Source: Patescibacteria group bacterium
GTDB taxonomy: Bacteria > Patescibacteriota > Minisyncoccia > JAHISW01 > Tagabacteraceae
DNA: 64,000 nt
Assembly (NCBI GenBank): GCA_018819015.1
Contig: JAHJQY010000016.1
Span: 18,064-82,063 of the forward strand
Direction of reading: 5' to 3'
Position numbers and translations under genes: made by a program. Below are positions 1,474 through 45,670 of this stretch, piece by piece. Under the pieces are notes generated by a model. The model was given only the letters and a program-made list of their open reading frames with translations. It ran no database searches and was not told the DNA's origin. Numbering within the stretch: position 1 is the first letter of the stretch; each line of letters starts with the position of its first letter.

Positions 1474-2541
1474 ATGAGAATATTAGCCATAGAAACTTCC
1501 TGCGACGAAACGGCAATAAGCGTTTTGAGCGCGGATAAAAAGGAATTTAAGATTTTATCCAACGTTATTTCCTCGCAGGTGAAAATACATGCCGAATGGG
1601 GCGGAGTGGTGCCCAGTTTGGCTAAGCGTGAACATCTTAAAAATTTGCCCGTTGTTTTAAAAAAAGCGCTGGCGCGGGCAAAAATTAAAAAACCAGAAAA
1701 AAAAATCAATCTTATCGCCGTTACCCAGGGTCCCGGGCTAGAACCAGCCTTATGGACAGGCATTAATTTTGCTGAAGAATTGGCGAAAAAATGGAGTAAA
1801 CCTTTAATACCCATAAACCACATGGAAGGGCATTTCTTTTCTGTTTTTCTTAAAAACAGAAAAGAGGGCGAACAGGAAATTCCAAAATTAGAATTTCCTG
1901 TTTTAGCCTTGCTAGTCAGCGGCGGACACACGGAATTAATTCTCGTAAAAGATTGGCTGAAATACAAAATTCTCGGACAAACCCGCGACGACGCCGCCGG
2001 TGAGGCCTTTGATAAAGTGGCGAAAATGATGAATTTGGGATACCCCGGAGGGCCTATTATCTCGAGACTCGCCAATGTTCGAAGTTCAACTTCGAACATT
2101 GAATTACCTAGGCCGATGATAAATTCAAAAGATTATGATTTTTCTTTTTCCGGCTTGAAAACCGCAGTTTTATATACTCTTAAAAAATTCCCAGTTGCCA
2201 ACTACAAATTACTAGCGCCCGGCATTTGCCGTGAATTTCAGCAGGCGGTAATTGATGTTTTGATTTCCAAAACAATACGGGCGGCCAAAGAATATAAAGC
2301 CAAAACTATTATAGTCGCAGGAGGTGTTGCCGCCAACAAAGAACTTCGCAAACAATTTGGACGAAAAATTAAAAAAGAACTGCCAATTACTAATTACTTG
2401 TTACCAATTACTAAGTTTTCAGGCGACAATGCGGCCATGATTGCTTTAGCCGCTTATTTTCGTTTCAAGGCAAATAAAAAATCCCATCAGTCACGGCTGA
2501 TGGGATTAAAAGCTCTTGGCAATTTAAAAATTAGTTATTAA
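1474..2541 (+). CDS. tsaD: tRNA N6-adenosine threonylcarbamoyltransferase TsaD (Kae1/Gcp family)
   Basis: Starts 'MRILAIETSCDETAISV' and contains 'GVAANKELR' and 'SGDNAAMIA', all hallmark TsaD motifs. The start was moved to the ATG at 1474. Carries the in-frame 27-nt palindrome at 2074-2100 (NVRSSTSNI). Confidence 0.9.
   Translation: MRILAIETSCDETAISVLSADKKEFKILSNVISSQVKIHAEWGGVVPSLAKREHLKNLPVVLKKALARAKIKKPEKKINLIAVTQGPGLEPALWTGINFAEELAKKWSKPLIPINHMEGHFFSVFLKNRKEGEQEIPKLEFPVLALLVSGGHTELILVKDWLKYKILGQTRDDAAGEAFDKVAKMMNLGYPGGPIISRLANVRSSTSNIELPRPMINSKDYDFSFSGLKTAVLYTLKKFPVANYKLLAPGICREFQQAVIDVLISKTIRAAKEYKAKTIIVAGGVAANKELRKQFGRKIKKELPITNYLLPITKFSGDNAAMIALAAYFRFKANKKSHQSRLMGLKALGNLKISY
2074..2100. 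repeat. 27-nt perfect palindrome, in-frame in tsaD (type copy of family 1)
   Basis: aatgttcgaagtt-c-aacttcgaacatt. Identical copies at 2889-2915 (valS) and 10293-10319 (SpoU). Variants at 45631-45657, 58419-58447, 62557-62585 and 59862-59910. Confidence 0.9.
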
Positions 2542-10085: not shown

Positions 10086-10535
10086 ATGTCTCAAAACAAA
10101 GAAATATATCTCATCCTCCACAACGTCCGCAGTCTGTATAATGTCGGCTCTATTTTTAGAACGGCTGATTGCGCCGGTGTGAAAAAAATTTTCCTGACCG
10201 GCTACACGCCGGAACCGGCTCCAAAAACCGCGCTCGGCGCGGAGAAAACCGTCCTTTGGGAAAAACACAAAAACATCTCCACCCTAATTTCCAATGTTCG
10301 AAGTTCAACTTCGAACATTAAAATAGTTGTGGTAGAACAAGACAAAAAAGCGATAAATTATAAAAATTTTAAACCAAAATATCCGCTAGTTTTAATTTTA
10401 GGCAATGAGGTGCGCGGGCTTTCCAAGCAAATCATCAAAAAATGCGACGCCATTATTGAAATCCCAATGAAGGGAAAAAAAGAATCTTTAAATGTGGCCG
10501 TGGCGGCCGGTATTATATTATTTTCTCTAAATTAA
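10086..10535 (+). CDS. SpoU/TrmH-family (SPOUT) RNA 2'-O-methyltransferase
   Basis: 'NVGSIFRTADCAGV' (motif 1) and 'LVLILGNEVRGL', 'IEIPMKG...SLNVAVAAGIILF' (SPOUT knot motifs). Contains the 27-nt palindrome at 10293-10319. Confidence 0.8.
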   Translation: MSQNKEIYLILHNVRSLYNVGSIFRTADCAGVKKIFLTGYTPEPAPKTALGAEKTVLWEKHKNISTLISNVRSSTSNIKIVVVEQDKKAINYKNFKPKYPLVLILGNEVRGLSKQIIKKCDAIIEIPMKGKKESLNVAVAAGIILFSLN

Positions 10536-20764: not shown

Positions 20765-21214
20765 TTATCGACTTACGAAATCGATAATTCGTCTTTTTTC
20801 GTCCAAATGCTCAAATTTTATCCAGATAGTATTCTTGGGCAGGATTTTTTTAACTTTCTCCGCCCATTCCACCAAAATTATATTTTCCGGATTATTAACC
20901 AACTCCTCCCACCCCAGATATAAAATTTCCTTGGGATTGTCAATTCTATAAGCGTCAATATGTACTAAATTTTTGAATTTCTTGAGTATTACAAAAGTAG
21001 GACTGGTAATTTTATCCTTTATTCCCAACGCCTTGGCAAATCCCTGAACAAAAACCGTCTTGCCCGCGCCCAAATCGCCGCTCAAAGCAATAACACAAGC
21101 CTCGCACGACTTCCGAAGTCGTGTGGATATGATTTTTTTAGCCAGAGATTCGGCCAACTTACCGGTCTGACCGCAGGTGCGACTAATTTTTCTCATAAAC
21201 TCATTACACCGCAA
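20765..21214 (-). CDS. tsaE: tRNA threonylcarbamoyladenosine biosynthesis ATPase TsaE
   Basis: 'LSGDLGAGKTVFVQGFAKALGI...SPTFVILKKF'. Confidence 0.8.
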   Translation of the reverse strand: MRCNEFMRKISRTCGQTGKLAESLAKKIISTRLRKSCEACVIALSGDLGAGKTVFVQGFAKALGIKDKITSPTFVILKKFKNLVHIDAYRIDNPKEILYLGWEELVNNPENIILVEWAEKVKKILPKNTIWIKFEHLDEKRRIIDFVSR

Positions 21215-21269
21215 AATCGAACAGACTGCAATATTGATAAGATTTTTTCAAAATGCTAAAAGAAGAATA

Positions 21270-22337
21270 ATGATTGAGAGAATCAAGCCACTTATTGAAA
21301 ACTCCGGAAGCTTCGGCCTGCTGACCGACCAAAATCCGGAAGACCATGAATTCCTGGCCAAAGAAGCTCTGAAAAAAACAATAAGCCAGAAGTTTTTGCC
21401 TGTTTTAGACCTGCCCCGGCCGCATACGGAACTTCTGGAAAAATGGTCTGCTATAATAAAACCGGTTCAGGAAATTGAATTTCCCAAAAAAACTCTTTTA
21501 AAATTGCCAAAAAGCAAATATGGCATCAAAGAAGTGGCCTACAAAGAAGATGGGGAAAATTTGGCGCTGGTGATAACCTCGGACAACGGCTTAATTTCCA
21601 GCAATGACATCTCTTTTGAAACACTTCTTCCTGAAACAGAAACAGTTTTTTGTTTTTTTGAAAACCAAGCCAAGCTGGAAAAATTTCAAGGCATGCTGCA
21701 ACTGCCCGATAATGAAAAAATAGTATTTCTTTCTCCAAACCGCAGAACGCAAACGGAAAAAGTTTTTGAAATTATAAAAATCTTTAATCCCGACATCCTG
21801 GAAGACGCGGGGATTTCCAGCCTTCTTTACGCGGCCCTTGTTTCAGAAACGAATAATTTTTCAGAAAAAAACACAAAAGAAGTTTTGTCCCTGGGGAGTC
21901 TTCTTTTGGAAAATACAATTCAACATGAAATAATTTCGGAAATTCTGGAAAAAGAAAAAAGCGACATTTCTCCGCAGCTTTTTGGACGCGCTTTGGCGCG
22001 CACTTTTATTGACCCCCTACTCAATATCTCCTGGAGTTTTCTGAACAGCCGAGATTTGCAAAAAACCAACAGCTCATCAATTTCTTTAAAAAGCTTATAT
22101 AAAATAACTCAAAAAATAAGTAAGATTATAACCAGCCAGAATCTGCATATCTTAATTTGGCAGTCCATAGACGGCATACAGGCCTTGGTGGCCGCCGGCA
22201 AAGGCAGGAATGAATCATTCCTTCTGCCTTTTGCCGAGAAAATGAACGCCGCGCCCCAAAGCCGCTTTTTTACGGTGGGGCCTTTCAAAAATTTCTCCGA
22301 GGCGGAAATCTATCTGCGAGACGCTTTAAAAACCTAG
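21270..22337 (+). CDS. Hypothetical protein (possibly a degenerate DHH/NrnA-like phosphoesterase)
   Basis: 355 aa from the internal Met. The catalytic motif is not clear, so the call is weak. Confidence 0.3.
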   Translation: MIERIKPLIENSGSFGLLTDQNPEDHEFLAKEALKKTISQKFLPVLDLPRPHTELLEKWSAIIKPVQEIEFPKKTLLKLPKSKYGIKEVAYKEDGENLALVITSDNGLISSNDISFETLLPETETVFCFFENQAKLEKFQGMLQLPDNEKIVFLSPNRRTQTEKVFEIIKIFNPDILEDAGISSLLYAALVSETNNFSEKNTKEVLSLGSLLLENTIQHEIISEILEKEKSDISPQLFGRALARTFIDPLLNISWSFLNSRDLQKTNSSSISLKSLYKITQKISKIITSQNLHILIWQSIDGIQALVAAGKGRNESFLLPFAEKMNAAPQSRFFTVGPFKNFSEAEIYLRDALKT

Positions 22338-22361: not shown

Positions 22362-24026
22362 GTGCCTAAATTCCAAGAAGAACAACAAAAAAAGAAGCTT
22401 GAACAAATCAGAGAACGGGAAGAGGAAGATGTAACAAAAATATTGTCTGAAAAATACAAAATTCCTTATCTTGACCTCTCAGAAATGACCATAGATTTGG
22501 ATTACTTGAAAATAATTCCCGAGCAGCAGGCGCGTGAAGCGAAAATGGCCGTTTTTCAGGGGGTGGGGAAGAAAATACAGGTAGCGACGCAAAACCCAAA
22601 ACTTGAGCTCGCGCAAAATATTCTAAAAAATCTGGAGGAAAAATACCAAATCCAAACTTTTTTGGTTTCTCTGTCAAATCTTGAAAAAGCATGGAAAAAA
22701 TACAAGGAAGTTCCGGAATTCGTAGAGCTGAGAAAAGGAATAATTGACGTATCGCCGGAAAGAATAGAAGAATTTTCTTCCCAAACAACTTCTCTGGAAA
22801 AACTTAAAGAAATTTTTAACCAAAGCGTCACCAGCAAAAAAAATCGCAGTATTTCAGAACTGATAGAAATAATGCTGGGTGGAGCGCTGGCAATGGATGC
22901 TTCCGATATCCACATTGAACCGCAAGAAAACAAGGTAAAAGTGCGTTTCCGTTTTGATGGAGTGCTACACGATATTTTAGAGTTCAATCCCCAGCCATAC
23001 CAACTGCTGATTTCCAGAATAAAACTGGTCTCTGAAATGAAATTAAACATAAAAGACCAAGCGCAAGACGGGCGATTTTCAATAAAAGTCAAAGGGTTAG
23101 AAATAGAAGTGCGTTCATCAATTATTCCCAGCCCTTACGGAGAATCAATTGTCATGAGAATCCTGAACCCCAAATCAATCAATGTTCCATTGGAAGCGCT
23201 GGGAATACATCCGGACCTCCTTGAAATAATCAAGAAAGAAATCAAAAAACCTAACGGCATGATATTAACCACCGGCCCTACCGGCTCAGGGAAAACCACG
23301 AGTCTTTACACCTTCCTGAAAGAAGTAAACAGCCCTTCCGTAAAAATCATTACAATTGAAAATCCTATTGAATATCACCTGACGGGAATAACCCAGACAC
23401 AGACAAGGGGGAAAAATTACACTTTTGCCTCTGGCTTGCGCTCAATACTGCGCCAAGACCCTGATATTATCATGGTCGGCGAAATAAGGGACCTGGAAAC
23501 GGCTGAAACCGCGCTGAACGCGGCTTTAACCGGCCACCTGGTCCTATCCACTCTCCATACCAATGACGCCGCCGGCATCATCCCTAGACTAATAGAACTT
23601 GGCGCCAACCCAGCTACAATTGCTCCAGCCATTAATCTGGCCCTGGCCCAACGCTTGGTGAGAAAATTGTGCCAAAACTGCAGAAAAGAATATTTACCAG
23701 ACGAAAAAGAAATGGAAACCATAGAAAAAATCGTTAATTCTTTCCCCCAGGGCAAAAAGAAACCAAATATAAAAAATATTAAATTATTTAAAGCGGTTGG
23801 CTGCGACCAGTGCCGAAAAACTGGTTATAAGGGACGAACCGGCATTTTTGAAGGAATAATAGTTGATGACGAAACAGAAAAATTAATATTAAAAAAACCG
23901 TCACGAACGGAATTAATAGATCGAGCGAAAAAACAAGGATTTTTAAATATGCAGCAAGATGCAATTTTGAAAATAATAAATGGAGACACTTCTTTAGAAG
24001 AAGTAAATAGGGTTATAGAACTTTAA
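22362..24026 (+). CDS. Type II/IV secretion-system ATPase (GspE/PilB family) with C-terminal tetracysteine motif
   Basis: N-terminal T2SSE_N-like domain, Walker A 'TGPTGSGKTT', 'MVGEIRD', 'TLHTND' His-box, and CxxC...CxxC ('CQNCRK','CDQCRK'). Confidence 0.85.
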   Translation: MPKFQEEQQKKKLEQIREREEEDVTKILSEKYKIPYLDLSEMTIDLDYLKIIPEQQAREAKMAVFQGVGKKIQVATQNPKLELAQNILKNLEEKYQIQTFLVSLSNLEKAWKKYKEVPEFVELRKGIIDVSPERIEEFSSQTTSLEKLKEIFNQSVTSKKNRSISELIEIMLGGALAMDASDIHIEPQENKVKVRFRFDGVLHDILEFNPQPYQLLISRIKLVSEMKLNIKDQAQDGRFSIKVKGLEIEVRSSIIPSPYGESIVMRILNPKSINVPLEALGIHPDLLEIIKKEIKKPNGMILTTGPTGSGKTTSLYTFLKEVNSPSVKIITIENPIEYHLTGITQTQTRGKNYTFASGLRSILRQDPDIIMVGEIRDLETAETALNAALTGHLVLSTLHTNDAAGIIPRLIELGANPATIAPAINLALAQRLVRKLCQNCRKEYLPDEKEMETIEKIVNSFPQGKKKPNIKNIKLFKAVGCDQCRKTGYKGRTGIFEGIIVDDETEKLILKKPSRTELIDRAKKQGFLNMQQDAILKIINGDTSLEEVNRVIEL

Positions 24027-24272
24027 ATTGAGCCCTAAAATCTCCAAGCAATAACTTTTAGTGTGGGCACCAAAAGTTTTGGGATTCTCCCGGGATAACC
24101 CTCGCCTATTTGAATAAACAAACAAACCAGGATGTCCTTAAACAAAATCCCTGGAAAGGTAAATAAATAACTTCATTGCTTGGAGATTTTAAAGATCAAT
24201 CCCGCCCAAGCGAGATAAATATTTTGTTTATTAGGTTATTGTATCAATAAAATTAAGCTTTGTCAAGTACCT

Positions 24273-25298
24273 ATGACGACATCAAAAAAAGAGCAATTGC
24301 CAGAAGACCGATACGAAGACCGGTCTTTGGATGTTGCCCTGCGGCCAAAAGCTTGGGATGAATATATTGGTCAAAAAAACATCAAAAAAAATCTGAAAAT
24401 TCTCATAGACGCAGCCGGAGAAAGAAAAGAACCAATAGAACATCTTCTTTTTTACGGGCCGGCCGGCTTGGGCAAAACCACCCTAGCTCATGTTGTTGCA
24501 AAAGAAACAAATGCTTCAATGAAAATCAGTTCGGGTCCGGCCATAGAAAAAGTGGGGGATCTAGCCTCGGTGCTGACCAACCTCGCGCCCGGAGAAATAC
24601 TCTTCATAGACGAAGCCCATCGGCTGAACAAATCCATAGAAGAAATACTTTACCCGGCAATGGAATCAAGGTCGTTAAATATTATAATAGGCAAAGGGGC
24701 GTCGGCCAGAACTATTCAATTGGAATTGCCGCCGTTCACTCTTATCGCCGCGACAACAAAAATAGCCGCCTTGTCAGCGCCGCTGCGGTCTCGTTTTTCC
24801 GGAGGAACTTTCAAATTAGAGCCCTATGAAACAAAAGAGATTGAAAAAATCATCGAGCGCTCGGCAATTATTCTGGGAGTCAAAATAGACGACGAAGCCG
24901 CCCAGAAAATAGCCGAAAGAAGCAGATTCACTCCCAGAGTGGCAAATCGGCTCTTAAAACGCTGCCGCGACTTCGCGCAAATAAACAAACATAAAGTCAT
25001 CAGCCAAGACATAGTAGAACAGACTCTCCAATTGCTAGAAATAGACGAAAAAGGGCTTGAAAACACGGATAGAAATATTATACTGACAATCATAAAAAAA
25101 TTTAGCGGCGGGCCGGTCGGGCTGCAGACATTGTCAGCCGCCACCTCCGAAGACTCGGCAACAATAGAAGACGTTTACGAGCCCTACCTGATTAAATTGG
25201 GATTTATAGAAAGAACTCCTCGCGGACGAAAAGCCACGCCTCATGCCTATGAACATTTAAACATAACCAACCCCGGCCAACAAAACACACTATTATGA
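24273..25298 (+). CDS. ruvB: Holliday junction DNA helicase RuvB
   Basis: 'LLFYGPAGLGKTTLA' plus sensor and arginine-finger motifs. Confidence 0.9.
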   Translation: MTTSKKEQLPEDRYEDRSLDVALRPKAWDEYIGQKNIKKNLKILIDAAGERKEPIEHLLFYGPAGLGKTTLAHVVAKETNASMKISSGPAIEKVGDLASVLTNLAPGEILFIDEAHRLNKSIEEILYPAMESRSLNIIIGKGASARTIQLELPPFTLIAATTKIAALSAPLRSRFSGGTFKLEPYETKEIEKIIERSAIILGVKIDDEAAQKIAERSRFTPRVANRLLKRCRDFAQINKHKVISQDIVEQTLQLLEIDEKGLENTDRNIILTIIKKFSGGPVGLQTLSAATSEDSATIEDVYEPYLIKLGFIERTPRGRKATPHAYEHLNITNPGQQNTLL

Positions 25299-25834: not shown

Positions 25835-26304
25835 TAATTCTGGGAATTGACCCCGGCTATGGCCGGCTGGGCTACGCGGTGCTAGAAAAAAACGACAAAG
25901 AAAACTTGATTGATTGCGGTTGTTTGGAAACAACCTCCAAAGAAGAACATTCAGACAGAATTCTTAAAATAGCCGACGGGGTTGAAAAAATCATTAAAAA
26001 ATACAAGCCGGAAATACTGGCTATTGAAAAAATTTACTTCACGACCAATCAAAAAACAGCGCTTAAGGTTTCAGAAATTAAAGGTATTATTACTTATTTG
26101 GCCCTGAAAAATAAAATGCGGCTTGCCGAATATACCCCCCTGGAAGTAAAGATAGCGGTTTGCGGTTATGGCCGAGCGCCTAAGGAGCAAATTAAAAAAA
26201 TGGTGGATTTGTTAATCAAAGTAAAAAATCCGCCCAAAAACGACGACACCTACGACGCCATCGCGCTGTGTTTAACTTGTTCGGCCACCCTGCCTTGCCG
26301 GTAG
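25831..26304 (+). CDS. ruvC: Holliday junction resolvase RuvC
   Basis: 'IILGIDPGYGRLGYAVLE' and 'YDAIALCLTC'. Confidence 0.85.
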   Translation: MIILGIDPGYGRLGYAVLEKNDKENLIDCGCLETTSKEEHSDRILKIADGVEKIIKKYKPEILAIEKIYFTTNQKTALKVSEIKGIITYLALKNKMRLAEYTPLEVKIAVCGYGRAPKEQIKKMVDLLIKVKNPPKNDDTYDAIALCLTCSATLPCR

Positions 26305-26442
26305 GCAGACCTCTTTACAAAAAAAAGTTTTTCTGATAAACATTATTAAGTCCCGCTTAGGCGAGGCAAACCCCGCCTTATGGCGGGGTAAATAAGGTCG
26401 GAAACCCTTAGATTATATTTAGAATTAAAGTATTTTATTAAT

Positions 26443-26562
26443 ATGGACGAAAAAGAAAAAGAATTAGAGTTAGACGCCGAGAAAACTGACGAAGACGAGG
26501 AAGTAGACGCGGTGGCTGACGACGCGGAAGAAACCGAAGAAGTAGAAGAAGAAACCGAGTAA
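26443..26562 (+). CDS. Possible 39-aa highly acidic small protein
   Basis: ATG...TAA ORF encoding MDEKEKELELDAEKTDEDEEVDAVADDAEETEEVEEETE. A strong terminator follows immediately. It is not in the ORF track because it is under 60 aa. Confidence 0.25.
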   Translation: MDEKEKELELDAEKTDEDEEVDAVADDAEETEEVEEETE

Positions 26563-26570
26563 TTAAAAAC

Positions 26571-26600
26571 AAATCCCGCCAATTGGCGGGATTTGTTTTT
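26571..26600. terminator. Bidirectional rho-independent terminator
   Basis: aaatcccgcc-aatt-ggcgggattt, a 10-bp stem flanked by T-runs on both strands. It overlaps the tyrS stop. Confidence 0.7.
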
Positions 26601-27795
26601 ACCCAAAAACCAACTTAACAAAAACTTTCTTCCCAACCCGGACAACACCGGGATTTATTATTTTGAAATGAATATCACTTATTGCCTCACCATTAAAATC
26701 AATCGCTCCGTCTTTTATAAGTCTGCGAAATTCCATGTTGGAAGAAATTATATTATTAAACAAAAGCGCGTCTTTTAATTCACTGTCTTTTTTAACAATA
26801 ATTTCTTTGGCATCTTCCGGCAACTCTCTTTTTTGAAAAGTTTTTATAAAATTATCTTGGGCTTGTTTAGTTTTTTTCTCTCCAAAAAACAATTTGATAA
26901 TTTCGTGAGCCGCAATTTTTTTAGCCTCCATTTTATCTCCCATTTTTTTAATTTTTTCCACCTCCGGTAAAGGTAGACGAGTATTGTTAACCAGAAAAAT
27001 TTCCGTCATCTCGTCGGGCTGAGACATAATGGCGCCAAACATTTCTCTTGGCGCTAAATCAAGAAAAACTCCGGTGCCACGGCTTTTGGACATCATCTCA
27101 CCAGTCTTGGGGTTTTCCATTAAATTAACCACCAAAACAAACTTATTTTTATTTTTAAATTTTTTTAACAATGTCCGGCCAACCAAAGCGTTAAAAATTT
27201 GATCCGTGCCGCACATTTCCACATCAACATCCAATTCAACACTGTCATAACCCTGCATCAATGGATATAAAAACTCGTGAAGATAAATGGGCTTATTTTC
27301 CGTCATTCTTTTTTGGAACATATCCCGGCCCAACAGCTGCTGGATAGTCAGATTTGAAGCTAAATCCACCACTTTCTCAAAACGAAGTTTGGAAAGCCAT
27401 TTATTATTATATAAAACTTTGGGTGGATTATTTTTATCCTTAAAATCCATCAGGGGACTAATTTGTTCTAGCCACCCCTTAACATTTTCCTTAATTTCAT
27501 CCGAAGAAAGCTGTTTTCTGCCTTCGCTTTGGTCTGTCGGGTCGCCAATTCTGGCGGTAAAATCACCTACCAAAACTATAACTTCGTGACCCAGTTGACG
27601 GAATTCCTCCAAAAGCAAATAATTTTTGGCATGGCTCAAATGAAGAGAAGGAGAAGTCGGATCAGCCCCGATATAAAATCTCAAACATTGACCGCTCAAA
27701 AGTTTATCTTTAAATTCTTTCAAAGAAGGGATAGCGTCTACAATCACGCCCCTGTTTAGAATTTCGTCAATTTTTTTCTCATCTTTTTTTATCAT
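26599..27795 (-). CDS. tyrS: Tyrosyl-tRNA synthetase
   Basis: Class I motifs 'PTSPSLHLSHA' and 'KMSKS', plus a C-terminal S4-like domain. Confidence 0.8.
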   Translation of the reverse strand: MIKKDEKKIDEILNRGVIVDAIPSLKEFKDKLLSGQCLRFYIGADPTSPSLHLSHAKNYLLLEEFRQLGHEVIVLVGDFTARIGDPTDQSEGRKQLSSDEIKENVKGWLEQISPLMDFKDKNNPPKVLYNNKWLSKLRFEKVVDLASNLTIQQLLGRDMFQKRMTENKPIYLHEFLYPLMQGYDSVELDVDVEMCGTDQIFNALVGRTLLKKFKNKNKFVLVVNLMENPKTGEMMSKSRGTGVFLDLAPREMFGAIMSQPDEMTEIFLVNNTRLPLPEVEKIKKMGDKMEAKKIAAHEIIKLFFGEKKTKQAQDNFIKTFQKRELPEDAKEIIVKKDSELKDALLFNNIISSNMEFRRLIKDGAIDFNGEAISDIHFKIINPGVVRVGKKVFVKLVFG

Positions 27796-27862
27796 AGTTA
27801 TAATTTACCAAAAATATTGAATAAATACAATTTTTGTGTTAATTTGCAAGAATAATATCTTT

Positions 27863-30040
27863 ATGAGAAAATTTCTTTTGGGCTTAATTACTTTTTTTCT
27901 TTTATGCGCCGTAATTGGCGGGATCTTATTGTTTGTCTGGATAAAATCCATACCCATACCGGACTTCCAATCTTTCAATGAAAGAAAGGTTGTTCAGTCC
28001 ACAAAAATTTACGACAGAACAGGAAAAATAATCCTGTACGATATACATGAAAACATAAAAAGAACGGTAATTCCATACGAAGACATACCCATTTATATAA
28101 AAAATGCGACGGTTGCCATTGAAGATTCCAATTTTTATCAACACAGAGGAATAAGTATCACCGGAATAATAAGGGCGTTTATGACAAATATAAAAAGCGG
28201 AAAAATAAAAGGACAAGGCGGATCAACCATCACGCAACAATTGATAAAAAACACTTTCCTAACTCCGGAAAAAACTTTCACAAGAAAAATCAAAGAAGTT
28301 ATATTGTCATTTAAACTAGAAAGGGCGGTTTCAAAAGAAGAAATTTTAACCCTCTATTTAAACGAAGTGCCTTACGGAGGAAGCAATTATGGGATAGAAG
28401 CGGCTTCTCAGTCTTTTTTTAATAAATCAGCCAAAGATTTAAATCTGGCTGAATCTGCCTATCTGGCCGCCCTACCCCAAGCCCCAAGTTATTATTCCCC
28501 CTACGGCATACATACGGACGAACTGGAACAAAGAAAAAACCTTGTTTTAAAAAGAATGCTGGATTTAAGTTTTATAGAAGAAGGAACCTATGAAGAAAAC
28601 AAAAATAAAAAAATAACATTTACCAATCCGGATGAAAAAAACATTAAAGCGCCTCATTTTGTAATGTTTATAAAAAATTATCTGGAAGAAAATTACGGAG
28701 AAGATATGGCGGAAAACGGCGGTTTGAAAGTTATAACTACTATTGATTTAGATTTGCAAAAAGAGGCGGAGAAATTAGTTTTTGATTATTCAAAAGAAAA
28801 TGAAGAAAAATTCAACGCAAAAAATGCCGGTTTGGTTGCCGTGGACCCAAAAACAGGCCAAATACTTGTTATGGTTGGATCAAAAAATTATTTTGACGAA
28901 AATTATGAAGGAAAATTTAATGTGACGCTGGCAAAAAGACAGCCCGGTTCCGCTTTTAAGCCCTTTGTTTACGCCACGGCTTTTAAAAGAGGGTATACTC
29001 CGCAAACAGTAGTTTTTGATTTAAAAACAGAATTTAACAGCTCTTGTAATCCTGATGGGTCGCCAAAAGAAGGAACAAAAGAGGAAGAATGTTATCATCC
29101 GGTAAACTATGACGGTATTTTTAGGGGCCCGATCACACTAAAAGATGCCTTGGCCCAATCTATAAATATTCCCGCAATAAAAACACTGTACCTGGCCGGA
29201 TTAAAAAACTCTTTGGAAACAGCCCAAAGTTTGGGTATAACAACACTAACAGATCCTTTGCGGTACGGCCTTACCCTTGTTTTGGGCGGCGGAGAAGTAA
29301 CATTATTGGAAATGACCGGCGCTTATTCTGTTTTCGCGAACAATGGTATTAAAAATAAAACAACCGGTATTTTAAAAATAGAAGATAGTCGAGGAAATAT
29401 AATTGAAGAATTTATTCCTGAACCAAAATCGGTTTTAGACCAAAAAGTAGTAATAATGATAAACAATATATTGTCTGATAATAATGCCAGAACGCCTGCC
29501 TTTGGAGAATCTTCATGGCTTTATTTTCCCAAAAGGGAAGTTGCCGTCAAAACAGGAACAACAAATGATTATAGGGATGCCTGGGTAATCGGCTATACCC
29601 CAAATTTCGCGCTTGGAGTATGGGTTGGAAACAACAACAACACATCTATGGAAAAAAAAGTAGCCGGTTTTATCGCCGCCCCACTGTGGAATTCTTTTTT
29701 TAAAAAAGTTTTTGAAAAACTTCCCAAAGAAGATTTTTTAAAACCAGAAAACATTAATACAGAATTATTAAGCGGTGTAAAGCCAATACTTAAAGGGTAT
29801 TGGAAAGGAAATAGAATATATTTAATAGACAAAACAACACAAAATCCCGCGACAGAAAATACGCCGTCGGAATCAATAGAAGAAAAAATACTTACTCAAA
29901 TTCACTGCATTCTTTATTGGGTTGATAAAAATAATCCAGCAGGAGAAATACCAATAAATCCAGAAAAAGATTCTCAATTTATTTCATGGGAAACACCAGT
30001 GAGAGAATGGGTAAAAAATCAAAACATAAAAGAAGATTAG
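27863..30040 (+). CDS. mrcA: Class A penicillin-binding protein (transglycosylase + transpeptidase)
   Basis: GT51 motifs 'IEDSNFYQHRGI' and 'GGSTITQQL'. Transpeptidase 'SAFKPFVYATAF' (SxxK) and 'KTGTTND'. Confidence 0.85.
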   Translation: MRKFLLGLITFFLLCAVIGGILLFVWIKSIPIPDFQSFNERKVVQSTKIYDRTGKIILYDIHENIKRTVIPYEDIPIYIKNATVAIEDSNFYQHRGISITGIIRAFMTNIKSGKIKGQGGSTITQQLIKNTFLTPEKTFTRKIKEVILSFKLERAVSKEEILTLYLNEVPYGGSNYGIEAASQSFFNKSAKDLNLAESAYLAALPQAPSYYSPYGIHTDELEQRKNLVLKRMLDLSFIEEGTYEENKNKKITFTNPDEKNIKAPHFVMFIKNYLEENYGEDMAENGGLKVITTIDLDLQKEAEKLVFDYSKENEEKFNAKNAGLVAVDPKTGQILVMVGSKNYFDENYEGKFNVTLAKRQPGSAFKPFVYATAFKRGYTPQTVVFDLKTEFNSSCNPDGSPKEGTKEEECYHPVNYDGIFRGPITLKDALAQSINIPAIKTLYLAGLKNSLETAQSLGITTLTDPLRYGLTLVLGGGEVTLLEMTGAYSVFANNGIKNKTTGILKIEDSRGNIIEEFIPEPKSVLDQKVVIMINNILSDNNARTPAFGESSWLYFPKREVAVKTGTTNDYRDAWVIGYTPNFALGVWVGNNNNTSMEKKVAGFIAAPLWNSFFKKVFEKLPKEDFLKPENINTELLSGVKPILKGYWKGNRIYLIDKTTQNPATENTPSESIEEKILTQIHCILYWVDKNNPAGEIPINPEKDSQFISWETPVREWVKNQNIKED

Positions 30041-30043
30041 GAG

Positions 30044-31147
30044 TTATATATTCTTCATCGGCATAATCAAACAAAAAAAAGATTTATCATCTAAGCTTGT
30101 TATTAAAAGTGGTTTTCCTTCTCCGTTAAATTTTAAAATAATTTTTTCAGAATTTACAGAAGATAAACAGTCAATTAAATAACGGTGATTAAAAACCATC
30201 ATTAGATCATCTCCCTCTGTTTCTGTTTTAATATTCACAGTGTGTTCTCCTAAATCAGGGTTGTTAGTTTGAACTTCTAGAAAATTTTCATCTTTGTAAA
30301 TTTTTAACTTTACTTCGTTTAATTTTCCGCGGAATATTGCCGAACTTTTTAAACAATTATTAAATTCTTTTTTGTTAACTATTGCTGTGTTGGTAAAATC
30401 AACGGGAATAATTTGTTTATAATCAATAAAATTTCCATCAGTTAAACGAGTTGTAAATTCAATATTATCGTTTTCTAAAATTAAATTGTTGTCGTCTGTT
30501 TTTATTACAATGTCTCCTTCTTGATTTTCAAAAATTCTTAATATTTCAACCGCGCTCCGATAAGGTATTAAAATATTGGGAAAATTTGAAAAATTATAAG
30601 GAATTGTTTTTTCAGATAAACGAAAAGAGTCTGTGGCAACAAAAGTTAAAGGTGTTTTTACTGAAGAAAACAATAAAATACTATTTATTTCCGGCTTAAT
30701 TTCTGACAATGAAGCTGAACAATAAACCGACTTTAAACCTGATATAAAATCATTAACAGAAACAATAAAAGAATTTTTTTCTTTTATTGTTGGCAATAAA
30801 GGAAAATCCTCCACAAGATAACCTTTTATGGTTGTTGAACTGTTTTTTGTTGTAATAATTAAATTATCTTTAATACTGTCTAGTTTTATTTCATTATGGT
30901 CTGGCAAAGAAGAAATAAGGCTGCAAAAAAGCTTAGAAGGTAGGGCGACTTTTCCCTCTTTTTCTATTTTTGCGGGTATTGAAATTTTTAAAGCTATTTC
31001 AAGATTAGTATTAAAAAAAACTAAAGAATTTTTATTGGCAGAAATTAAGACTGCGTTTAAAATCGGCAAGGTTGGATTACGATTAGGTATTTTTTCGCTT
31101 AACAACCCCGCTTTTTGTAAATAATGTTTTAAACAAGTTGCCTTCAT
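30044..31147 (-). CDS. dnaN: DNA polymerase III beta sliding clamp
   Basis: 367 aa, immediately downstream of dnaA, with a typical N-terminus 'MKATCLKHYLQKA'. Confidence 0.85.
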   Translation of the reverse strand: MKATCLKHYLQKAGLLSEKIPNRNPTLPILNAVLISANKNSLVFFNTNLEIALKISIPAKIEKEGKVALPSKLFCSLISSLPDHNEIKLDSIKDNLIITTKNSSTTIKGYLVEDFPLLPTIKEKNSFIVSVNDFISGLKSVYCSASLSEIKPEINSILLFSSVKTPLTFVATDSFRLSEKTIPYNFSNFPNILIPYRSAVEILRIFENQEGDIVIKTDDNNLILENDNIEFTTRLTDGNFIDYKQIIPVDFTNTAIVNKKEFNNCLKSSAIFRGKLNEVKLKIYKDENFLEVQTNNPDLGEHTVNIKTETEGDDLMMVFNHRYLIDCLSSVNSEKIILKFNGEGKPLLITSLDDKSFFCLIMPMKNI

Positions 31148-31345
31148 AATTAATTTAATATTTATTTAAATAATTTATTATTATTATTAAACATGTGGAT
31201 ATTGTTGATAACTTGAATTTGATTTGTAAAATTAAAGAATAAAAACATTTTTTAATTTAATAATTTGTTGATAAATATTTTATTAATCGTTGATATGTTA
31301 TTAATATAATAAATCCAATAATAACTTATAAACCAATTATCAACA
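31148..31345. promoter_or_regulatory. Candidate oriC: AT-rich dnaA-dnaN intergenic region with DnaA boxes
   Basis: Four to five TTATCCACA-like boxes, each 8/9 match: tgtggatat (31193-31201), tgttgataa (31203-31211), tgttgataa (31266-31274) and ttatcaaca (31337-31345). Confidence 0.6.
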
Positions 31346-32722
31346 TTATTTATACAAACAATCCCTTATTTTTTGTATCTCATCTTTTATTTGATAGTTG
31401 TTTTTTATATCTTTTGAGATTTTTTCATAAGCATGAATTGCTGTTGTGTGGTCTCTGCCTCCAAGTTTTTTTCCAATATATGGATAAGAAGCGTTAAAAT
31501 CTTCTCTTAATAAATACATTATAATTTGCCTTGGTAAAACATATTCTTTTCTTCTTGATTTTTCAAAAATAAATCTTTCTTCTATTTCATAAAAATCGCC
31601 TATAGTTTTAATTATTTTATTAAATGTTATTTTTTTCTTTGAATAAATAATGTTTTTATTGAATATTTCTTTTAATTCCTGGGTGGATAAATTTTTACCA
31701 AGAAGTTTTGATTGAGCCAATAGAAGATTTAAGGCACCCTCAAGCTCCCGCACATTGTTTTTTATTGTTGAAGCAATATAATTTATTGTTTCTTCCGACA
31801 AGTCAATATCTTTTGTTTGTAGTTTTGATTTTAAAATAGCTATTCTTGCTTCATATTCCGGTTCTGATATATCAGCCATCATTCCTCCTTCAAATCTAGA
31901 CCTTAATCTTTCTTCTAGATCAAGTATTGATTTTGGCGATCTGTCTGAGGAAAAAATAATTTGCTTATTTTTTTCATATAAAGAATTAAAAATATGAAAA
32001 AGTTCTTCTTGTGTTTTTGTTTTACCTGATAAAAATTGGATATCATCTATTATTAATAAATCATATTTTTTATAACCTTCTTTGAATTCATGTATTGTGT
32101 TGTTTTGTATTGAAGATATGAGCATGTTGGCGAATTTTTCCAAAGTCGTGTATTTTATTTGAGATTTTTCATTATCTTCTTTTATTTTATTGCCGATAGC
32201 TTGTAATAAATGAGTTTTACCCAAACCAACCCCTCCATATATAAATAATGGGTTATATGTTGTTCCTGGATTTTTTATCACAGCCACGGCGGCGGCATGA
32301 GCCAGTTCATTAAATGAACCAACTATAAAATCATTAAAAGTATAGCGGGGATTTAACGACTCTTTTGTTTCGTGGAATTCTTTAAATTCCATTTGTTGGC
32401 TTTCTTCTGTTTTTTGCGGCATTAATTTAATTGTCGAGATTTTTTCACAGATAGGCTTTATTTTATTACTAACAATATATTCTGTATCTTTGATTGACGG
32501 GTCTATTTTTCGTAAAGCGCTTATTATAAATTTATTATATTTGTTTTTTACCCATTCTTTACTGAAACTGTTCGGCACACCTATAAAAACAATGCCGTTT
32601 TCAGTTTTTTCTATATTGGTGTTTTTTAACCAGGTAACAAAATTAGCTTTTGATATAAGCATTTCCAATTCATTGAGTGTTTTTTCCCAGATTTGTCCTT
32701 TTTCTGTTTGTTGGGTATCCAT
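31346..32722 (-). CDS. dnaA: Chromosomal replication initiator DnaA
   Basis: 'GGVGLGKTHLLQAIGN', 'DDIQFL', and a C-terminal HTH 'LGGRDHTTAIHAYEKI'. Confidence 0.95.
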   Translation of the reverse strand: MDTQQTEKGQIWEKTLNELEMLISKANFVTWLKNTNIEKTENGIVFIGVPNSFSKEWVKNKYNKFIISALRKIDPSIKDTEYIVSNKIKPICEKISTIKLMPQKTEESQQMEFKEFHETKESLNPRYTFNDFIVGSFNELAHAAAVAVIKNPGTTYNPLFIYGGVGLGKTHLLQAIGNKIKEDNEKSQIKYTTLEKFANMLISSIQNNTIHEFKEGYKKYDLLIIDDIQFLSGKTKTQEELFHIFNSLYEKNKQIIFSSDRSPKSILDLEERLRSRFEGGMMADISEPEYEARIAILKSKLQTKDIDLSEETINYIASTIKNNVRELEGALNLLLAQSKLLGKNLSTQELKEIFNKNIIYSKKKITFNKIIKTIGDFYEIEERFIFEKSRRKEYVLPRQIIMYLLREDFNASYPYIGKKLGGRDHTTAIHAYEKISKDIKNNYQIKDEIQKIRDCLYK

Positions 32723-32841
32723 GTTTTGATTATAGCTTAATAAGAGAACAGACGTAAAATCGTCTAAATTGGTTATATGTTAACAATCTGTGTATTATTT
32801 GTGAATATTGCTTTTTGGTGATTATAATTTATAATAAAAAC

Positions 32842-32976
32842 ATGTCTGTTACCTATCAACCAAAAAAAAGAAAAAGGAAAAAAACTCACGGTTTTTTAAA
32901 AAGATCAAAAACTCCGGGCGGAAGAAATATTTTGAAAAACAGAAGGAGAAAAAATAGAAAGAAATTAACAGTCTAG
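32842..32976 (+). CDS. rpmH: 50S ribosomal protein L34
   Basis: [44 protein letters not shown], 44 aa, in the conserved position upstream of rnpA. Too short for the ORF track. Confidence 0.9.
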
Positions 32977-32985
32977 TTTAATGGC

Positions 32986-33324
32986 ATGTTGCCTTTTTTG
33001 AATAGGTTAAAAAAAGAAGACTTCAAATTATTAAAAAATTTTAAAAAAAAATTTTTTGTTTCCGATAATATTAATTTGAAGCTGTATTATTCCGGTTTCA
33101 ATCCAAGTCGTTTTTCTGTTGTTGTTCCGACAAGTTTTTCAAAGAAGGCGACAAAAAGAAATAAAATAAAAAGACAAACAAAAGCGGCTCTTTTGAATTA
33201 TTTAAAAAAAATTGAACCCGGCTTTGCTTCTGTTTTTTATTTTAAAAAAGAAACAAAAAATCTTTCTTTTGAAGAAATAAAAAAAGAGATATTGTTTCTT
33301 TTAAAAAAATCTAAAATTTTATGA
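32986..33324 (+). CDS. rnpA: RNase P protein component
   Basis: 112 aa and basic, with 'KRNKIKRQ'. Sits in the rpmH-rnpA-yidC context. Confidence 0.8.
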   Translation: MLPFLNRLKKEDFKLLKNFKKKFFVSDNINLKLYYSGFNPSRFSVVVPTSFSKKATKRNKIKRQTKAALLNYLKKIEPGFASVFYFKKETKNLSFEEIKKEILFLLKKSKIL

Positions 33325-34055
33325 TTGGGAATATTTATCAAATTGTTTTTTTTCAGCCGTTGTATAACGGTCTTATTTTTTTAACGAAAATTCTGCCGTT
33401 TAATGATTTAGGGCTGGCAATTGTTTTTTTGACGGTGATAGTCAGATTTATTTTATTTCCTTTGAGCCATAAATCAATAGTTACGCAAAAAAAAATAAAA
33501 ATTTTAGAACCGGAGATTAATAAAATTAAAAATAAGCATAAAGAAAAACAAGAAGAACAGACGAAACAAATAATGGCTTTGTATAAAAATCACGGCATAA
33601 ATCCCTTCTCTGGTTTCTTTTTAATTCTTATACAATTACCCGTTTTTATCGCTTTATATACGATTCTTAGAAATTTTTCTGCTATAAATTCCGATTTACT
33701 CTATTCTTTTTTGGGCGTTGTTGAAAAAGTGAACACATCTTTTTTGGGGTTAATAGATATTTCAAAGCCCAGTTATTTAATTTCTATTCTGGCGGGTCTT
33801 TCCCAGTTTTTTCAAATAAAATTATCTTTACCTCCCGGCAAAAAAATACCCCAAAAAGAACGTTCTTTTAAGGATGAGTTGCAAAGAAGCATGGGAATTC
33901 AGATGAGATACGTTATGCCCGTATTTATTTTTTTTATTGCCCAGCGTTTTTCCTCCGGACTGGCGCTTTATTGGACAACTTCAAACATTTTTGCTATATT
34001 TCATGAAATTATCGTAGCCAGAAAAGCAAAGAAATTAGAACAAAATGGAAGATAA
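33321..34055 (+). CDS. yidC: Membrane protein insertase YidC (short, Oxa1-like)
   Basis: 'QIMALYKNHGINPFSG' and 'LPVFIALY', with 5 TM helices. Confidence 0.85.
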   Translation: MIGNIYQIVFFQPLYNGLIFLTKILPFNDLGLAIVFLTVIVRFILFPLSHKSIVTQKKIKILEPEINKIKNKHKEKQEEQTKQIMALYKNHGINPFSGFFLILIQLPVFIALYTILRNFSAINSDLLYSFLGVVEKVNTSFLGLIDISKPSYLISILAGLSQFFQIKLSLPPGKKIPQKERSFKDELQRSMGIQMRYVMPVFIFFIAQRFSSGLALYWTTSNIFAIFHEIIVARKAKKLEQNGR

Positions 34056-45600: not shown

Positions 45601-45670
45601 CGCCCTTTTTCCGCCCCCATGTGGATAATCAATGTTCGAAGTTCAACTTCAATCATTGGCGTGCGGGGGA

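What the first reader, a model, noticed from the sequence alone, without database searches (positions are those of the whole stretch)
24037..24189. ~150-nt intergenic element closed by a 16-bp long-range helix: candidate structured ncRNA
'aaaatctccaagcaat' (24037-24052) pairs perfectly with 'attgcttggagatttt' (24174-24189). The pair encloses several local hairpins, including aactttt/aaaagtt, ggga-ttc-tccc and ccagg...cctgg. It lies in the 246-nt gap between the GspE-like ATPase and ruvB, which are otherwise tightly packed neighbours. A long closing helix with an internal multi-stem is typical of a stable small RNA (for example 6S-like or a cis-regulatory element) rather than a simple terminator.
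Basis: seen in the sequence. Interest (0 to 1): 0.55.

Follow-up and report, generated by a model that had tools for sequence, protein, structure and literature searches.

The report
New structured small-RNA gene in Patescibacteria
The inverted repeat is real and closes a conserved, independently transcribed, roughly 200-nt structured RNA gene on the opposite strand to its neighbours; it matches no Rfam 15 family and occurs at this spot in at least 21 related ultra-small (Patescibacteria) bacterial genomes, with function unknown.

Summary
The repeat exists: perfect 17 bp at 24036-24052 / 24175-24191, extending to 26-nt arms at 24027-24052 / 24175-24200. The RNA lies on the minus strand, where three of the four plus-strand mismatches become G-U pairs. 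The minus strand folds at -82 kcal/mol (z -6.3) against -59.5 for the plus strand, and scores 151 against 40 bits with the family model.

A near-consensus sigma-70 promoter (TTGACA-17-TGnTACAAT, 24266-24238) drives it, and a U-rich tail follows the helix. The same gene sits between the PilB-like T2SSE ATPase gene and ruvB in 21 distinct Patescibacteria loci, plus two weaker and one marginal.

The fold is a 25-31 bp closing helix P1, hairpin P2, a long arm P3 with an invariant AGGA/UCCU-UGG core, and hairpin P4. Covariation is strong: 97% of cells paired, 32 of 44 pairs with double changes, slid controls 42-54%.

No Rfam 15 family matches at any threshold, and no viral copies were found. It is not canonical 6S, because the centre is a structured junction and P1 is nearly perfect. 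It is not a MITE, a riboswitch or a plain terminator.

Best reading: a new stand-alone, protein-binding housekeeping RNA. A 6S-type RNA polymerase decoy is the leading specific guess (about 0.25).

The parts
24238..24266 (-). Sigma-70 promoter of the RNA gene. The -35 TTGACA is at 24266-24261, followed by a 17-nt spacer ending in TG (extended -10) and the -10 TACAAT at 24243-24238. The predicted transcription start is about 24231-24232.
   Evidence: 11 of 12 consensus matches plus the TG; these columns are invariant in the alignment. TTGACA-17-TG-TAnnnT is exact in 16 of 21 family loci, 7-64 nt upstream of P1. The transcription start itself is inferred, not measured.
24199..24216 (-). 5' leader hairpin (AUCUCGC-UUGG-GCGGGAU) between the predicted start and P1. 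It is specific to this genome and is not part of the family core.
   Evidence: 7-bp stem. It is absent from the other members in alignments A1 and A2.
24175..24200 (-). P1, 5' strand of the closing helix. The inner half (AAAUCUCCAAGCAAU) is conserved in sequence; the outer half covaries freely.
   Evidence: There are 25 model pairs, 21 of them with double compensatory changes and 96% of cells paired.
24155..24174 (-). P2 region, the 5' side of the junction. The hairpin is weak in this genome. In most relatives it is a clear 5-8 bp hairpin with many different stem sequences. It is absent in the Giovannonibacteria members and in L024.
   Evidence: Per-sequence folds. Examples: AUCCCGC/GCGGGAU, AAGAC/GUCUU, UAGAC/GUCUA, AAAACC/GGUUUU. 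It is not in the covariance model because MAFFT could not keep it in register.
24081..24151 (-). P3, the long apical arm.
- Outer stem P3a: 24141-24151 / 24081-24091.
- Invariant AGGA (24135-24138) pairing with UCCU.
- Conserved 1-nt versus UA (24096-24097) internal loop.
- Covarying P3c.
- Conserved U-G-G with a bulged G.
- Variable apical hairpin.
   Evidence: Helix 2 has 10 pairs, 98% of cells paired, 4 pairs with double changes; the AGGA/UCC core is invariant in 21 sequences.
24053..24078 (-). P4, an 11-bp hairpin in this genome (9-10 bp in relatives) with tetraloop CCCA (24064-24067).
   Evidence: Helix 3 has 9 pairs, 7 with double changes, 98% paired. The loop is CCCA in the closer members only.
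24027..24052 (-). P1, 3' strand of the closing helix.
24018..24026 (-). U-rich 3' tail (UUUAAAGUU), the probable transcript end. It overlaps the stop codon of the convergent T2SSE gene (24024-24026).
   Evidence: Close relatives have U4-U6 directly after P1. Distant relatives instead have a separate canonical terminator hairpin a few nt after P1. The 3' end itself is inferred.
22362..24026 (+). Convergent neighbour: PilB/GspE-like T2SSE ATPase gene. This is context, not part of the RNA.
   Evidence: PF00437, E 3.7e-117; it lies upstream of the RNA in every locus where that flank was captured.
24273..25298 (+). Divergent neighbour: ruvB. Its start codon is only 6 nt from the RNA's -35 hexamer.

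Best explanation
Window 24020-24232 (minus strand) is an independent gene for a roughly 200-nt structured RNA.

**How it is made.** The housekeeping sigma factor transcribes it from a near-consensus extended -10 promoter. Its ends are brought together by a 25-31 bp near-perfect helix (P1) followed by a U-tract. I infer that P1 both ends transcription and protects the RNA.

**Fold.** P1 opens into a compact junction carrying three elements:
- a short hairpin, P2;
- a long arm, P3, whose AGGA/UCCU + Y/UA loop + UGG core is invariant;
- a 9-11 bp hairpin, P4.

**Classification.** It belongs to a previously undescribed family. Each locus, and each long contig scanned by pattern, held one copy. The family is confined so far to Paceibacteria-type Patescibacteria.

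**Proposed mechanism.** I propose that it acts in trans as a stable protein-binding RNA, not as a cis-regulatory leader or a base-pairing sRNA. The most likely specific mechanism is a 6S-type decoy for the sigma-70 RNA polymerase holoenzyme. In that model:
- P1 is the downstream duplex;
- the junction with P2 and P4 stands in for the bubble and the -10-like region;
- the invariant P3 core, 12-23 bp from the junction, is the -35-like element.

**What is shown and what is inferred.**
- Shown: gene, strand, promoter motif, fold, conservation, and absence from Rfam.
- Inferred: transcription, transcript ends, stability, protein binding.
- Speculative: RNA polymerase as the partner.

**Probabilities.**
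- Real structured RNA gene on the minus strand: about 0.95.
- Trans-acting protein-binding RNA: about 0.55.
- 6S-type polymerase decoy specifically: about 0.25.
For: **Strand and fold**
- The minus strand folds at -82.2 kcal/mol (z -6.3) against -59.5 (z -3.5) for the plus strand.
- The family model scores 151 bits on the minus strand and 39.7 on the plus strand.

**Promoter**
- One search finds it in the window.
- The same TTGACA-17-TG-TAnnnT is present in 16 of 21 loci.

**Conservation**
- The gene order T2SSE -> RNA (antisense) -> ruvB holds in every locus examined where both flanks were captured.
- Homologues were found three ways: by synteny, by a DNA pattern scan of metagenomes, and by covariance model in ruvB loci of GTDB genomes.
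- They include Giovannoni-, Taga-, Terry- and Yanofskybacteria.

**Covariation**
- 97.1% of 916 cells are paired.
- 32 of 44 pairs have changes on both sides.
- 0 of 500 shuffles reach the observed values.
- Slid controls give 42-54% paired.

**Discrete transcription unit**
- A U-tract or a separate terminator hairpin follows P1 directly.

**Single copy**
- One model hit in the 64-kb window.
- One pattern match in a 706-kb contig and one in a 320-kb contig.

**Not a base-pairing sRNA or a leader**
- There is no long conserved unpaired seed.
- No gene lies downstream on its strand.

**6S-like traits**
- Size is 155-205 nt.
- A closing stem is formed by the two termini.
- The apical arm has conserved internal loops.
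- A hairpin sits on the 3' side of the centre, as in B. subtilis 6S-1.
- The definitions of these traits come from PMC8414754 and PMC8876501.
Against: - There is no expression data, so the transcript and its ends are inferred.
- No Rfam 6S or other family hit at E<=10 for three diverse members.
- The centre is a structured three- or four-way junction, not an open bubble. P2 covaries as a real hairpin, and the Giovannonibacteria members leave only about 5 unpaired nt on the 5' side.
- P1 is nearly perfect: 26-29 uninterrupted pairs in 8 of 14 members. By contrast, 6S arms are described as 'not perfectly base-paired' (PMC8876501). Such a helix is also a good RNase III substrate.
- I could not check whether a canonical 6S gene exists elsewhere in these genomes.
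- The tight, conserved placement antisense to the T2SSE-ruvB spacer also fits a local (cis-antisense) role.
Confidence: 0.55

Rival explanations
1. **Local cis-antisense or insulator module.** The RNA gene is transcribed against the T2SSE -> ruvB direction. In this model it blocks or processes read-through between the two genes. It would do so by polymerase collision, or by pairing of the abundant antisense RNA with the spacer of a T2SSE-ruvB transcript followed by RNase III cleavage. The RNA would have no trans target.
For: - The RNA is antisense to the T2SSE-ruvB spacer in every locus where both flanks were captured.
- In close relatives its 3' end abuts or overlaps the T2SSE stop codon.
- Its -35 hexamer is 6 nt from the ruvB start codon, which leaves little room for a ruvB promoter.
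Against: - Selection clearly acts on the RNA's own fold. G-U pairs exist on one strand only, internal loops are invariant, and hairpins covary. An insulator would need none of this.
- Insertions separate the RNA from ruvB (about 780 nt in Tagabacteria L099/L010) or from T2SSE (about 800 nt in L017) without loss of the RNA.
- Distant members carry their own terminators on both sides.
Confidence: 0.13
2. **Precursor processed by RNase III.** The 25-31 bp near-perfect P1 would be a processing stem, as in rRNA precursors. The functional molecule would be the released core of about 105-140 nt (P2-P3-P4), or else the P1 duplex itself.
For: - P1 has 26-29 uninterrupted pairs in many members, which is long enough for RNase III.
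- The inner P1 sequence is conserved, while the outer half only covaries.
Against: - No processing data exist.
- Long terminal stems also occur in stable unprocessed RNAs.
- This model is compatible with the best explanation and does not exclude it.
Confidence: 0.1
3. **Riboswitch-like or ribozyme element.** In this model a ligand-binding or self-cleaving four-way-junction RNA controls antisense transcription into the T2SSE gene.
For: - It has a multi-stem junction with invariant internal-loop nucleotides.
- Read-through would be antisense to T2SSE.
Against: - A 25-31 bp P1 is far too stable to act as a switch helix.
- No alternative terminator/antiterminator pairing was seen.
- There is no match to any Rfam riboswitch or ribozyme.
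- Distant members have a constitutive terminator right after P1.
Confidence: 0.05
4. **DNA-level element or chance.** In this model the repeat is a miniature inverted-repeat transposable element (MITE), a recombination site, or a chance palindrome that doubles as a bidirectional terminator.
For: - It has terminal inverted repeats of 17-26 bp enclosing about 120 bp.
- A perfect repeat of at least 16 bp arises by chance in about 4% of shuffled windows.
Against: - There is a single copy in the window and in two long contigs.
- It occupies a fixed syntenic position across genomes whose RuvB is only 54-78% identical.
- Compensatory changes and G-U pairs are valid only on one strand.
- It has its own promoter.
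- No transposase is nearby.
Confidence: 0.01

Closest known systems
6S RNA (ssrS; Rfam RF00013 and relatives; B. subtilis 6S-1 type)
   Same: - Size is about 160-200 nt.
- It is a stand-alone gene with a strong housekeeping promoter.
- The 5' and 3' ends form a long closing stem.
- The apical arm is interrupted by conserved internal loops at a '-35-like' distance from the centre.
- A hairpin sits on the 3' side of the centre.
- Sequence conservation is poor outside the structure, so models built on one lineage miss others (PMC8414754, PMC8876501).
   Different: - There is no Rfam hit, even at E<=10.
- The centre is a compact three- or four-way junction with a covarying 5' hairpin (P2) and a 9-11 bp 3' hairpin (P4), not a largely unstructured bubble.
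- The closing stem is nearly perfect for 25-31 bp, whereas 6S arms are interrupted by bulges.
- Polymerase binding and product-RNA synthesis are untested.
Ms1 RNA of Actinobacteria (6S-related RNA that binds the RNA polymerase core)
   Same: It is a lineage-restricted, structure- and synteny-defined RNA that 6S models cannot find. It was identified through conserved gene neighbourhood (PMC9130861, listed).
   Different: From my own knowledge, Ms1 is about 300 nt and has a different fold. There is no sequence or model relationship. It occurs in a different phylum.
Bacterial Y RNA / YrlA (Ro60/Rsr-associated)
   Same: It has a long stem formed by the two termini, with a conserved sequence in the stem, plus a multi-helix junction module at the other end. 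It is a stable ribonucleoprotein-type RNA.
   Different: - No rsr (TROVE) or rtcB gene is nearby.
- There is no conserved T-loop-like motif.
- There is no Rfam Y-RNA hit.
Orphan structured ncRNA classes of unknown function (for example the raiA motif, OLE, ROOL)
   Same: It is defined purely by covariation and conservation, is lineage-restricted, has its own transcription unit, and has no known partner.
   Different: It is smaller than OLE, ROOL or GOLLD. It has a different fold and taxonomic range (Patescibacteria). It is not in Rfam 15.

Membership tests
6S RNA | Match to the Rfam 6S covariance models (RF00013, 6S-Flavo and others) | tested here: not met
   No 6S hit at the gathering threshold. 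None at E<=10 on three diverse members: the window, Giovannonibacteria L102, and L095.
6S RNA | [quoted passage not shown] | tested here: met
   Model hits span 154-205 nt. P1 and P3 are supported by covariation.
6S RNA | Large, relatively unstructured central bubble, with a single-stranded 5' central bulge that serves as the product-RNA template | tested here: not met
   Most members have a 5-8 bp hairpin (P2) with many compensating stem sequences on the 5' side, flanked by 0-1 and 3-6 unpaired nt. Giovannonibacteria members have only about 5 unpaired nt.
6S RNA | Helical arms not perfectly paired (bulges and internal loops that give B-DNA-like geometry) | tested here: inconclusive
   P3 has conserved internal loops. 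P1, however, has 26-29 uninterrupted pairs in 8 of 14 members.
6S RNA | Binds the sigma-70/sigma-A holoenzyme and templates product RNAs | not testable with these tools
   This needs biochemistry or small-RNA sequencing.
Y RNA / YrlA | Encoded next to rsr (Ro60, TROVE domain), with a tRNA-like module containing a T-loop | tested here: not met
   The neighbours are polA, tsaE, a 386-aa protein with no Pfam hit, T2SSE, ruvB, yebC, ruvC, tyrS and a penicillin-binding protein. No Rfam hit. No conserved UUCRANY loop in the alignment.
SRP RNA (4.5S / ffs) | Helix 8 with a GNAR tetraloop and conserved AGCA/GGA loops, matching Rfam SRP models | tested here: not met
   No SRP hit at E<=10. The motifs are absent from the consensus.
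Riboswitch / cis-regulatory leader | Lies in the 5' UTR of a gene on the same strand, with a short ligand-sensitive P1 and an expression platform | tested here: not met
   There is no downstream gene on the minus strand, only the antisense of T2SSE. P1 is 25-31 bp. No Rfam hit.
MITE / IS-derived inverted-repeat element | Multiple dispersed copies, terminal inverted repeats with target-site duplication, symmetry at the DNA level | tested here: not met
   Single copy. Fixed syntenic site. Pairing is valid on one strand only because of G-U pairs.
Simple intrinsic terminator | Short GC-rich hairpin with a 3-8 nt loop followed by a U-tract | tested here: not met
   The 'loop' is a conserved, covarying structure of 103-137 nt in the 14 members measured and longer in L024. 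P1 plus the U-tract may still end transcription, but the element is far more than a terminator.

The most novel reading that the evidence does not exclude
This is a previously unrecognised housekeeping ribonucleoprotein RNA of Candidate Phyla Radiation (CPR) bacteria. It could be the functional counterpart of 6S RNA in Patescibacteria: I found no paper reporting a 6S RNA there, and Rfam models found none in the roughly 200 kb scanned. In that case it would be built on a four-way junction instead of an open bubble. Alternatively, it could be the RNA subunit of an entirely new complex.

A more speculative variant: an RNA four-way junction encoded next to ruvB-ruvC might mimic a Holliday junction and bind junction-recognising proteins.
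Probability: 0.3. Interest if true: 0.8.

Novelty: new variant of a known kind. Interest (0 to 1): 0.62.

Why it matters
- Patescibacteria/CPR are a large share of bacterial diversity. They have tiny genomes of about 0.7-1 Mb, so a conserved non-coding gene kept at one copy per locus, with a consensus promoter, is likely to matter to the cell.
- Beyond rRNA, tRNA, tmRNA, RNase P RNA and SRP RNA, I know of no ncRNAs characterised in this group.
- A new, well-supported RNA family gives annotators a model. Public gene calls currently place a spurious ORF over it.
- It offers a concrete candidate for how these organisms might regulate RNA polymerase or another core machine.
- It provides a compact four-way-junction RNA with an invariant internal-loop motif for structural and pull-down studies.

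Tried and rejected
**Rfam**
- Whole window at the gathering threshold: only 4 tRNAs.
- E<=10 scans of the element in three diverse members: only noise at 12-18 bits, or nothing.
- 144 kb of related loci at the gathering threshold: nothing.

**tRNA/tmRNA**
- ARAGORN found no tRNA or tmRNA at the site.

**ruvB-anchored scan of GTDB genomes**
- It was saturated by conserved RuvB peptides. Most of the 80 loci were Firmicutes and similar, and none of the non-Patescibacteria loci included in the model search scored.
- Only about a dozen Patescibacteria loci were useful.

**DNA pattern scans**
- The strict pattern in viral contigs gave 0 hits.
- A looser pattern gave 41 hits, all rejected by the covariance model: best 17 bits.
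- One metagenome pattern hit, L096, was a false positive inside coding sequence.

**Structure details**
- A P4-loop (CCCA) to P3 (UGG) tertiary pairing was considered and rejected. UGG stays invariant where the loop changes.
- I looked for a conserved alternative pairing like the product-RNA-induced refolding of 6S. Nothing consistent was found by hand inspection.
- P2 and P3a could not be added to the model, because the MAFFT and model alignments do not keep them in register. They rest on per-sequence folds.

**Literature**
- Searches for 6S RNA or structured RNAs in Patescibacteria, CPR or Parcubacteria found nothing relevant.
- The paper describing 224 candidate structured RNAs has no such motif.

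**Coding potential**
- A small protein was considered, because a 43-aa ORF lies at 23994-24125 on the minus strand.
- It was rejected because indels are not multiples of three and the substitutions are compensatory.

Full report
**1. The observation**

'aaaatctccaagcaat' is at 24037-24052, but its partner 'attgcttggagatttt' is at 24175-24190, not 24174-24189.

- The perfect repeat is 17 bp: 24036-24052 / 24175-24191.
- It extends to 26-nt arms, 24027-24052 / 24175-24200. This is the longest inverted repeat in the 64-kb window.
- In 200 Markov-shuffled windows, a perfect repeat of at least 16 bp with a 20-300 nt loop appeared in 9, and one of at least 17 bp in 1.
- The repeat fills most of the 246-nt gap between a PilB/GspE-like T2SSE ATPase gene (22362-24026, +) and ruvB (24273-25298, +).

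**2. Strand**

The decisive first result is the strand asymmetry.

- The minus strand of the gap folds at -82.2 kcal/mol (z = -6.3). The plus strand folds at -59.5 (z = -3.5).
- Three of the four plus-strand mismatches in the 26-nt arms are C-A. On the minus strand they become G-U pairs, so 25 of 26 positions pair there.
- The minus strand also carries a near-consensus sigma-70 promoter with an extended -10: TTGACA-17 nt-TGa-TACAAT, 24266 to 24238, with 11 of 12 matches.
- That places the likely start near 24231.
- A U-rich stretch (24026-24018) follows the 3' arm and overlaps the T2SSE stop codon.

**3. Relatives**

The organism is a Patescibacteria (Parcubacteria/Paceibacteria-type) bacterium.
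- The source is a 96.6-kb metagenomic contig.
- The closest RuvB proteins elsewhere are 74-78% identical and are labelled Patescibacteria, Giovannoni-, Taga- and Terrybacteria.

*Synteny.* Contigs encoding these RuvB proteins all show T2SSE, then a 220-350 nt gap, then ruvB-yebC-ruvC. Aligning the minus strands of the gaps showed three things:
- an invariant promoter;
- conserved loops;
- compensatory changes in the closing helix, for example A-U to G-C and C-G to U-A.

*Pattern scan.* A degenerate pattern from the conserved core found 14 more stretches in metagenome contigs. One was a false positive. There was a single match in each of a 706-kb and a 320-kb contig.

*Model searches.* A covariance model (R1) found further members upstream of ruvB in seven GTDB Patescibacteria genomes.
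- Scores were 64-112 bits on the RNA strand. On the opposite strand, every member scored at least 30 bits lower (no opposite-strand hit was reported for L019).
- A second model (R2) added Yanofskybacteria L028 (43 bits) and L024 (41 bits).
- L026 scored only 16 bits, but it has the same synteny and fold.

*Where it was not found.*
- None of the Firmicutes or other non-Patescibacteria ruvB loci that were searched.
- Not the Doudnabacteria locus (L021), L022 or L029; these have no PilB-like T2SSE gene next to ruvB.
- Not viral contigs.

**4. Anatomy**

Window coordinates come and family features.

- **P1:** 24200-24175 pairs with 24052-24027. In relatives it is 25-31 bp, often 26-29 uninterrupted pairs. 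The inner half (UCUCYRRGCAA) is conserved in sequence. The outer half varies freely but stays paired.
- **P2:** 24174-24155. It is weak here. In most members it is a 5-8 bp hairpin with many different stem sequences. It is absent in Giovannonibacteria and L024.
- **P3:** 24151-24081.
  - It has an outer stem, then an invariant AGGA paired to UCCU.
  - A conserved 1-nt versus UA internal loop follows, then a covarying 5-bp stem.
  - Next come a conserved U-G-G with a bulged G and a variable tip.
- **P4:** 24078-24053. This is a 9-11 bp hairpin; the loop is CCCA in the closer members.

The centre is therefore a compact four-way junction, or three-way where P2 is missing. In close relatives a U-tract follows P1 directly. 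In distant ones a separate canonical terminator hairpin follows within a few nucleotides. The promoter TTGACA-17-TG-TAnnnT is exact in 16 of 21 loci, 7-64 nt upstream of P1.

**5. Covariation**

These figures are from the model-guided alignment of 21 distinct sequences.

| Measure | Observed | Control |
|---|---|---|
| Cells forming a standard pair | 97.1% | shuffles 77%; slid registers 42-54% |
| Pairs with changes on both sides | 32 of 44 | shuffles 20 |
| Covariation score | 0.63 | shuffles 0.23; 0 of 500 reach the observed value |

By helix, the number of pairs with double changes is:

| Helix | Pairs with double changes |
|---|---|
| P1 | 21 of 25 |
| P3 core | 4 of 10 (the AGGA/UCC core never varies) |
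| P4 | 7 of 9 |

The alignment was fitted to the model, which inflates such counts somewhat. However, a plain MAFFT alignment folded with RNAalifold gave the same helices, with 27 of 44 pairs compensated.

**6. What it is not**

- **Any Rfam 15 family.** There is nothing at the gathering threshold in the window or in 144 kb of related loci. There is nothing meaningful at E<=10 for three diverse members.
- **tRNA or tmRNA**.
- **A MITE or other DNA-level repeat.** It is single copy, sits at a fixed site, and pairs on one strand only.
- **A riboswitch or leader.** No gene lies downstream on its strand, and a 25-31 bp P1 cannot act as a switch.
- **A typical base-pairing sRNA.** There is no long conserved unpaired seed.
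- **A Y RNA.** No rsr or rtcB gene is nearby. The neighbours are polA, tsaE, an unknown 386-aa protein, T2SSE, ruvB, yebC, ruvC, tyrS and a penicillin-binding protein.

**7. Comparison with 6S RNA**

As described in PMC8414754 and PMC8876501, 6S RNAs have these features:
- They are about 160-200 nt and rod-shaped.
- They have a relatively unstructured central bubble.
- They carry a '-35-like' region in the apical arm and a '-10-like' region in the 3' central bubble.
- In B. subtilis 6S-1, a small hairpin lies opposite the 5' bulge.

This RNA shares the following:
- the size;
- the closing stem formed by the termini;
- an apical arm with a conserved internal-loop block 12-23 bp from the centre;
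- a 3'-side hairpin;
- a strong housekeeping promoter;
- single-copy status.

It fails two defining features. The centre is a structured junction with a covarying 5' hairpin, and P1 is almost perfect. I therefore do not file it as a 6S RNA. I keep 'works like 6S' as the leading specific hypothesis (about 0.25).

Ms1 of Actinobacteria is a precedent. It is a lineage-specific, 6S-related polymerase-binding RNA that was found only through structure and synteny (PMC9130861).

**8. Mechanism, with status of each step**

| Status | Steps |
|---|---|
| Shown | A conserved promoter motif; a conserved, covarying fold on the minus strand; a terminator-like end; one copy per locus; restriction to a Patescibacteria clade |
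| Inferred | The RNA is made constitutively. P1 plus the U-tract define and protect its ends. The invariant P3 core and junction are a protein-binding surface. It acts in trans. |
| Speculative | The partner is the sigma-70 holoenzyme |

Rivals:
- A local antisense or insulator role between T2SSE and ruvB (0.13). This is favoured by the tight packing: the -35 hexamer is 6 nt from the ruvB ATG, and the 3' tail overlaps the T2SSE stop codon. It is disfavoured by selection on the RNA's own fold, and by insertions that separate the RNA from either neighbour.
- An RNase III-processed precursor (0.10).
- A riboswitch or ribozyme (0.05).
- A DNA-level element or chance (0.01).

**9. Novelty and verdict**

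I found no description of this RNA in Rfam 15 or in the searchable literature. It is a new RNA family of a familiar general kind: a stable, structured, independently transcribed bacterial RNA. Its architecture is unusual, combining a very long perfect terminal helix with a compact four-way junction and an invariant internal-loop core. It occurs in a lineage where, beyond the universal ones, I know of no characterised ncRNAs.

The finding is real and worth follow-up. The function remains open.

Noticed in passing
window 2073-2101, 2888-2916, about 10292-10320, about 45630-45658, 58418-58448, 62556-62586; related nested palindrome at 59864-59908: A 29-bp perfect palindrome (CAATGTTCGAAGTTCAACTTCGAACATTG) and close variants recur. 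The core GAAGTTNAACTTC occurs 6 times against 0.17 expected. Some copies lie inside ORFs and some between genes. It could be a REP-like repeat, an operator, or an uptake-type signal.
   Followed up: partly
window about 26000-34000: The cumulative GC skew reaches its minimum around 26-30 kb and rises afterwards. At 30-34 kb the GC content drops to 0.26-0.29, against about 0.40 elsewhere. This could be a replication origin or terminus, or a foreign island, a few kb from the RNA gene.
   Followed up: no
window about 26443-26562 (+); L001 5171-5290, L003 5197-5355, L004 5177-5293, L007 5116-5247, L010 5197-5334, L012 5261-5401: A tiny, extremely acidic (D/E-rich) ORF of 38-52 aa is called between ruvC and the convergent tyrS in every syntenic locus. 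Only its composition and the start MD(E) are conserved.
   Followed up: partly
window 26564-26601: A 19-bp perfect palindrome with no spacer (TAAAAACAAATCCCGCCAA/TTGGCGGGATTTGTTTTTA) lies between the ruvC-side operon and the convergent tyrS. It is probably a bidirectional terminator.
   Followed up: no
L010 2085-2324 (-): Public gene calling places a 79-aa hypothetical ORF exactly over the RNA gene in the Tagabacteria contig. This family is therefore being mis-annotated as protein-coding.
   Followed up: partly
window 24199-24216 (-): A genome-specific 7-bp hairpin lies in the 5' leader of the RNA and is absent from relatives. The terminator scan flags it, but only a weak U-run follows.
   Followed up: partly
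window 21177-22337 (+): A 386-aa ORF directly upstream of the T2SSE gene has no Pfam match. A similar unannotated 355-376 aa gene precedes T2SSE in L003, L004, L007 and L010. It may be a divergent pilus-assembly partner.
   Followed up: no
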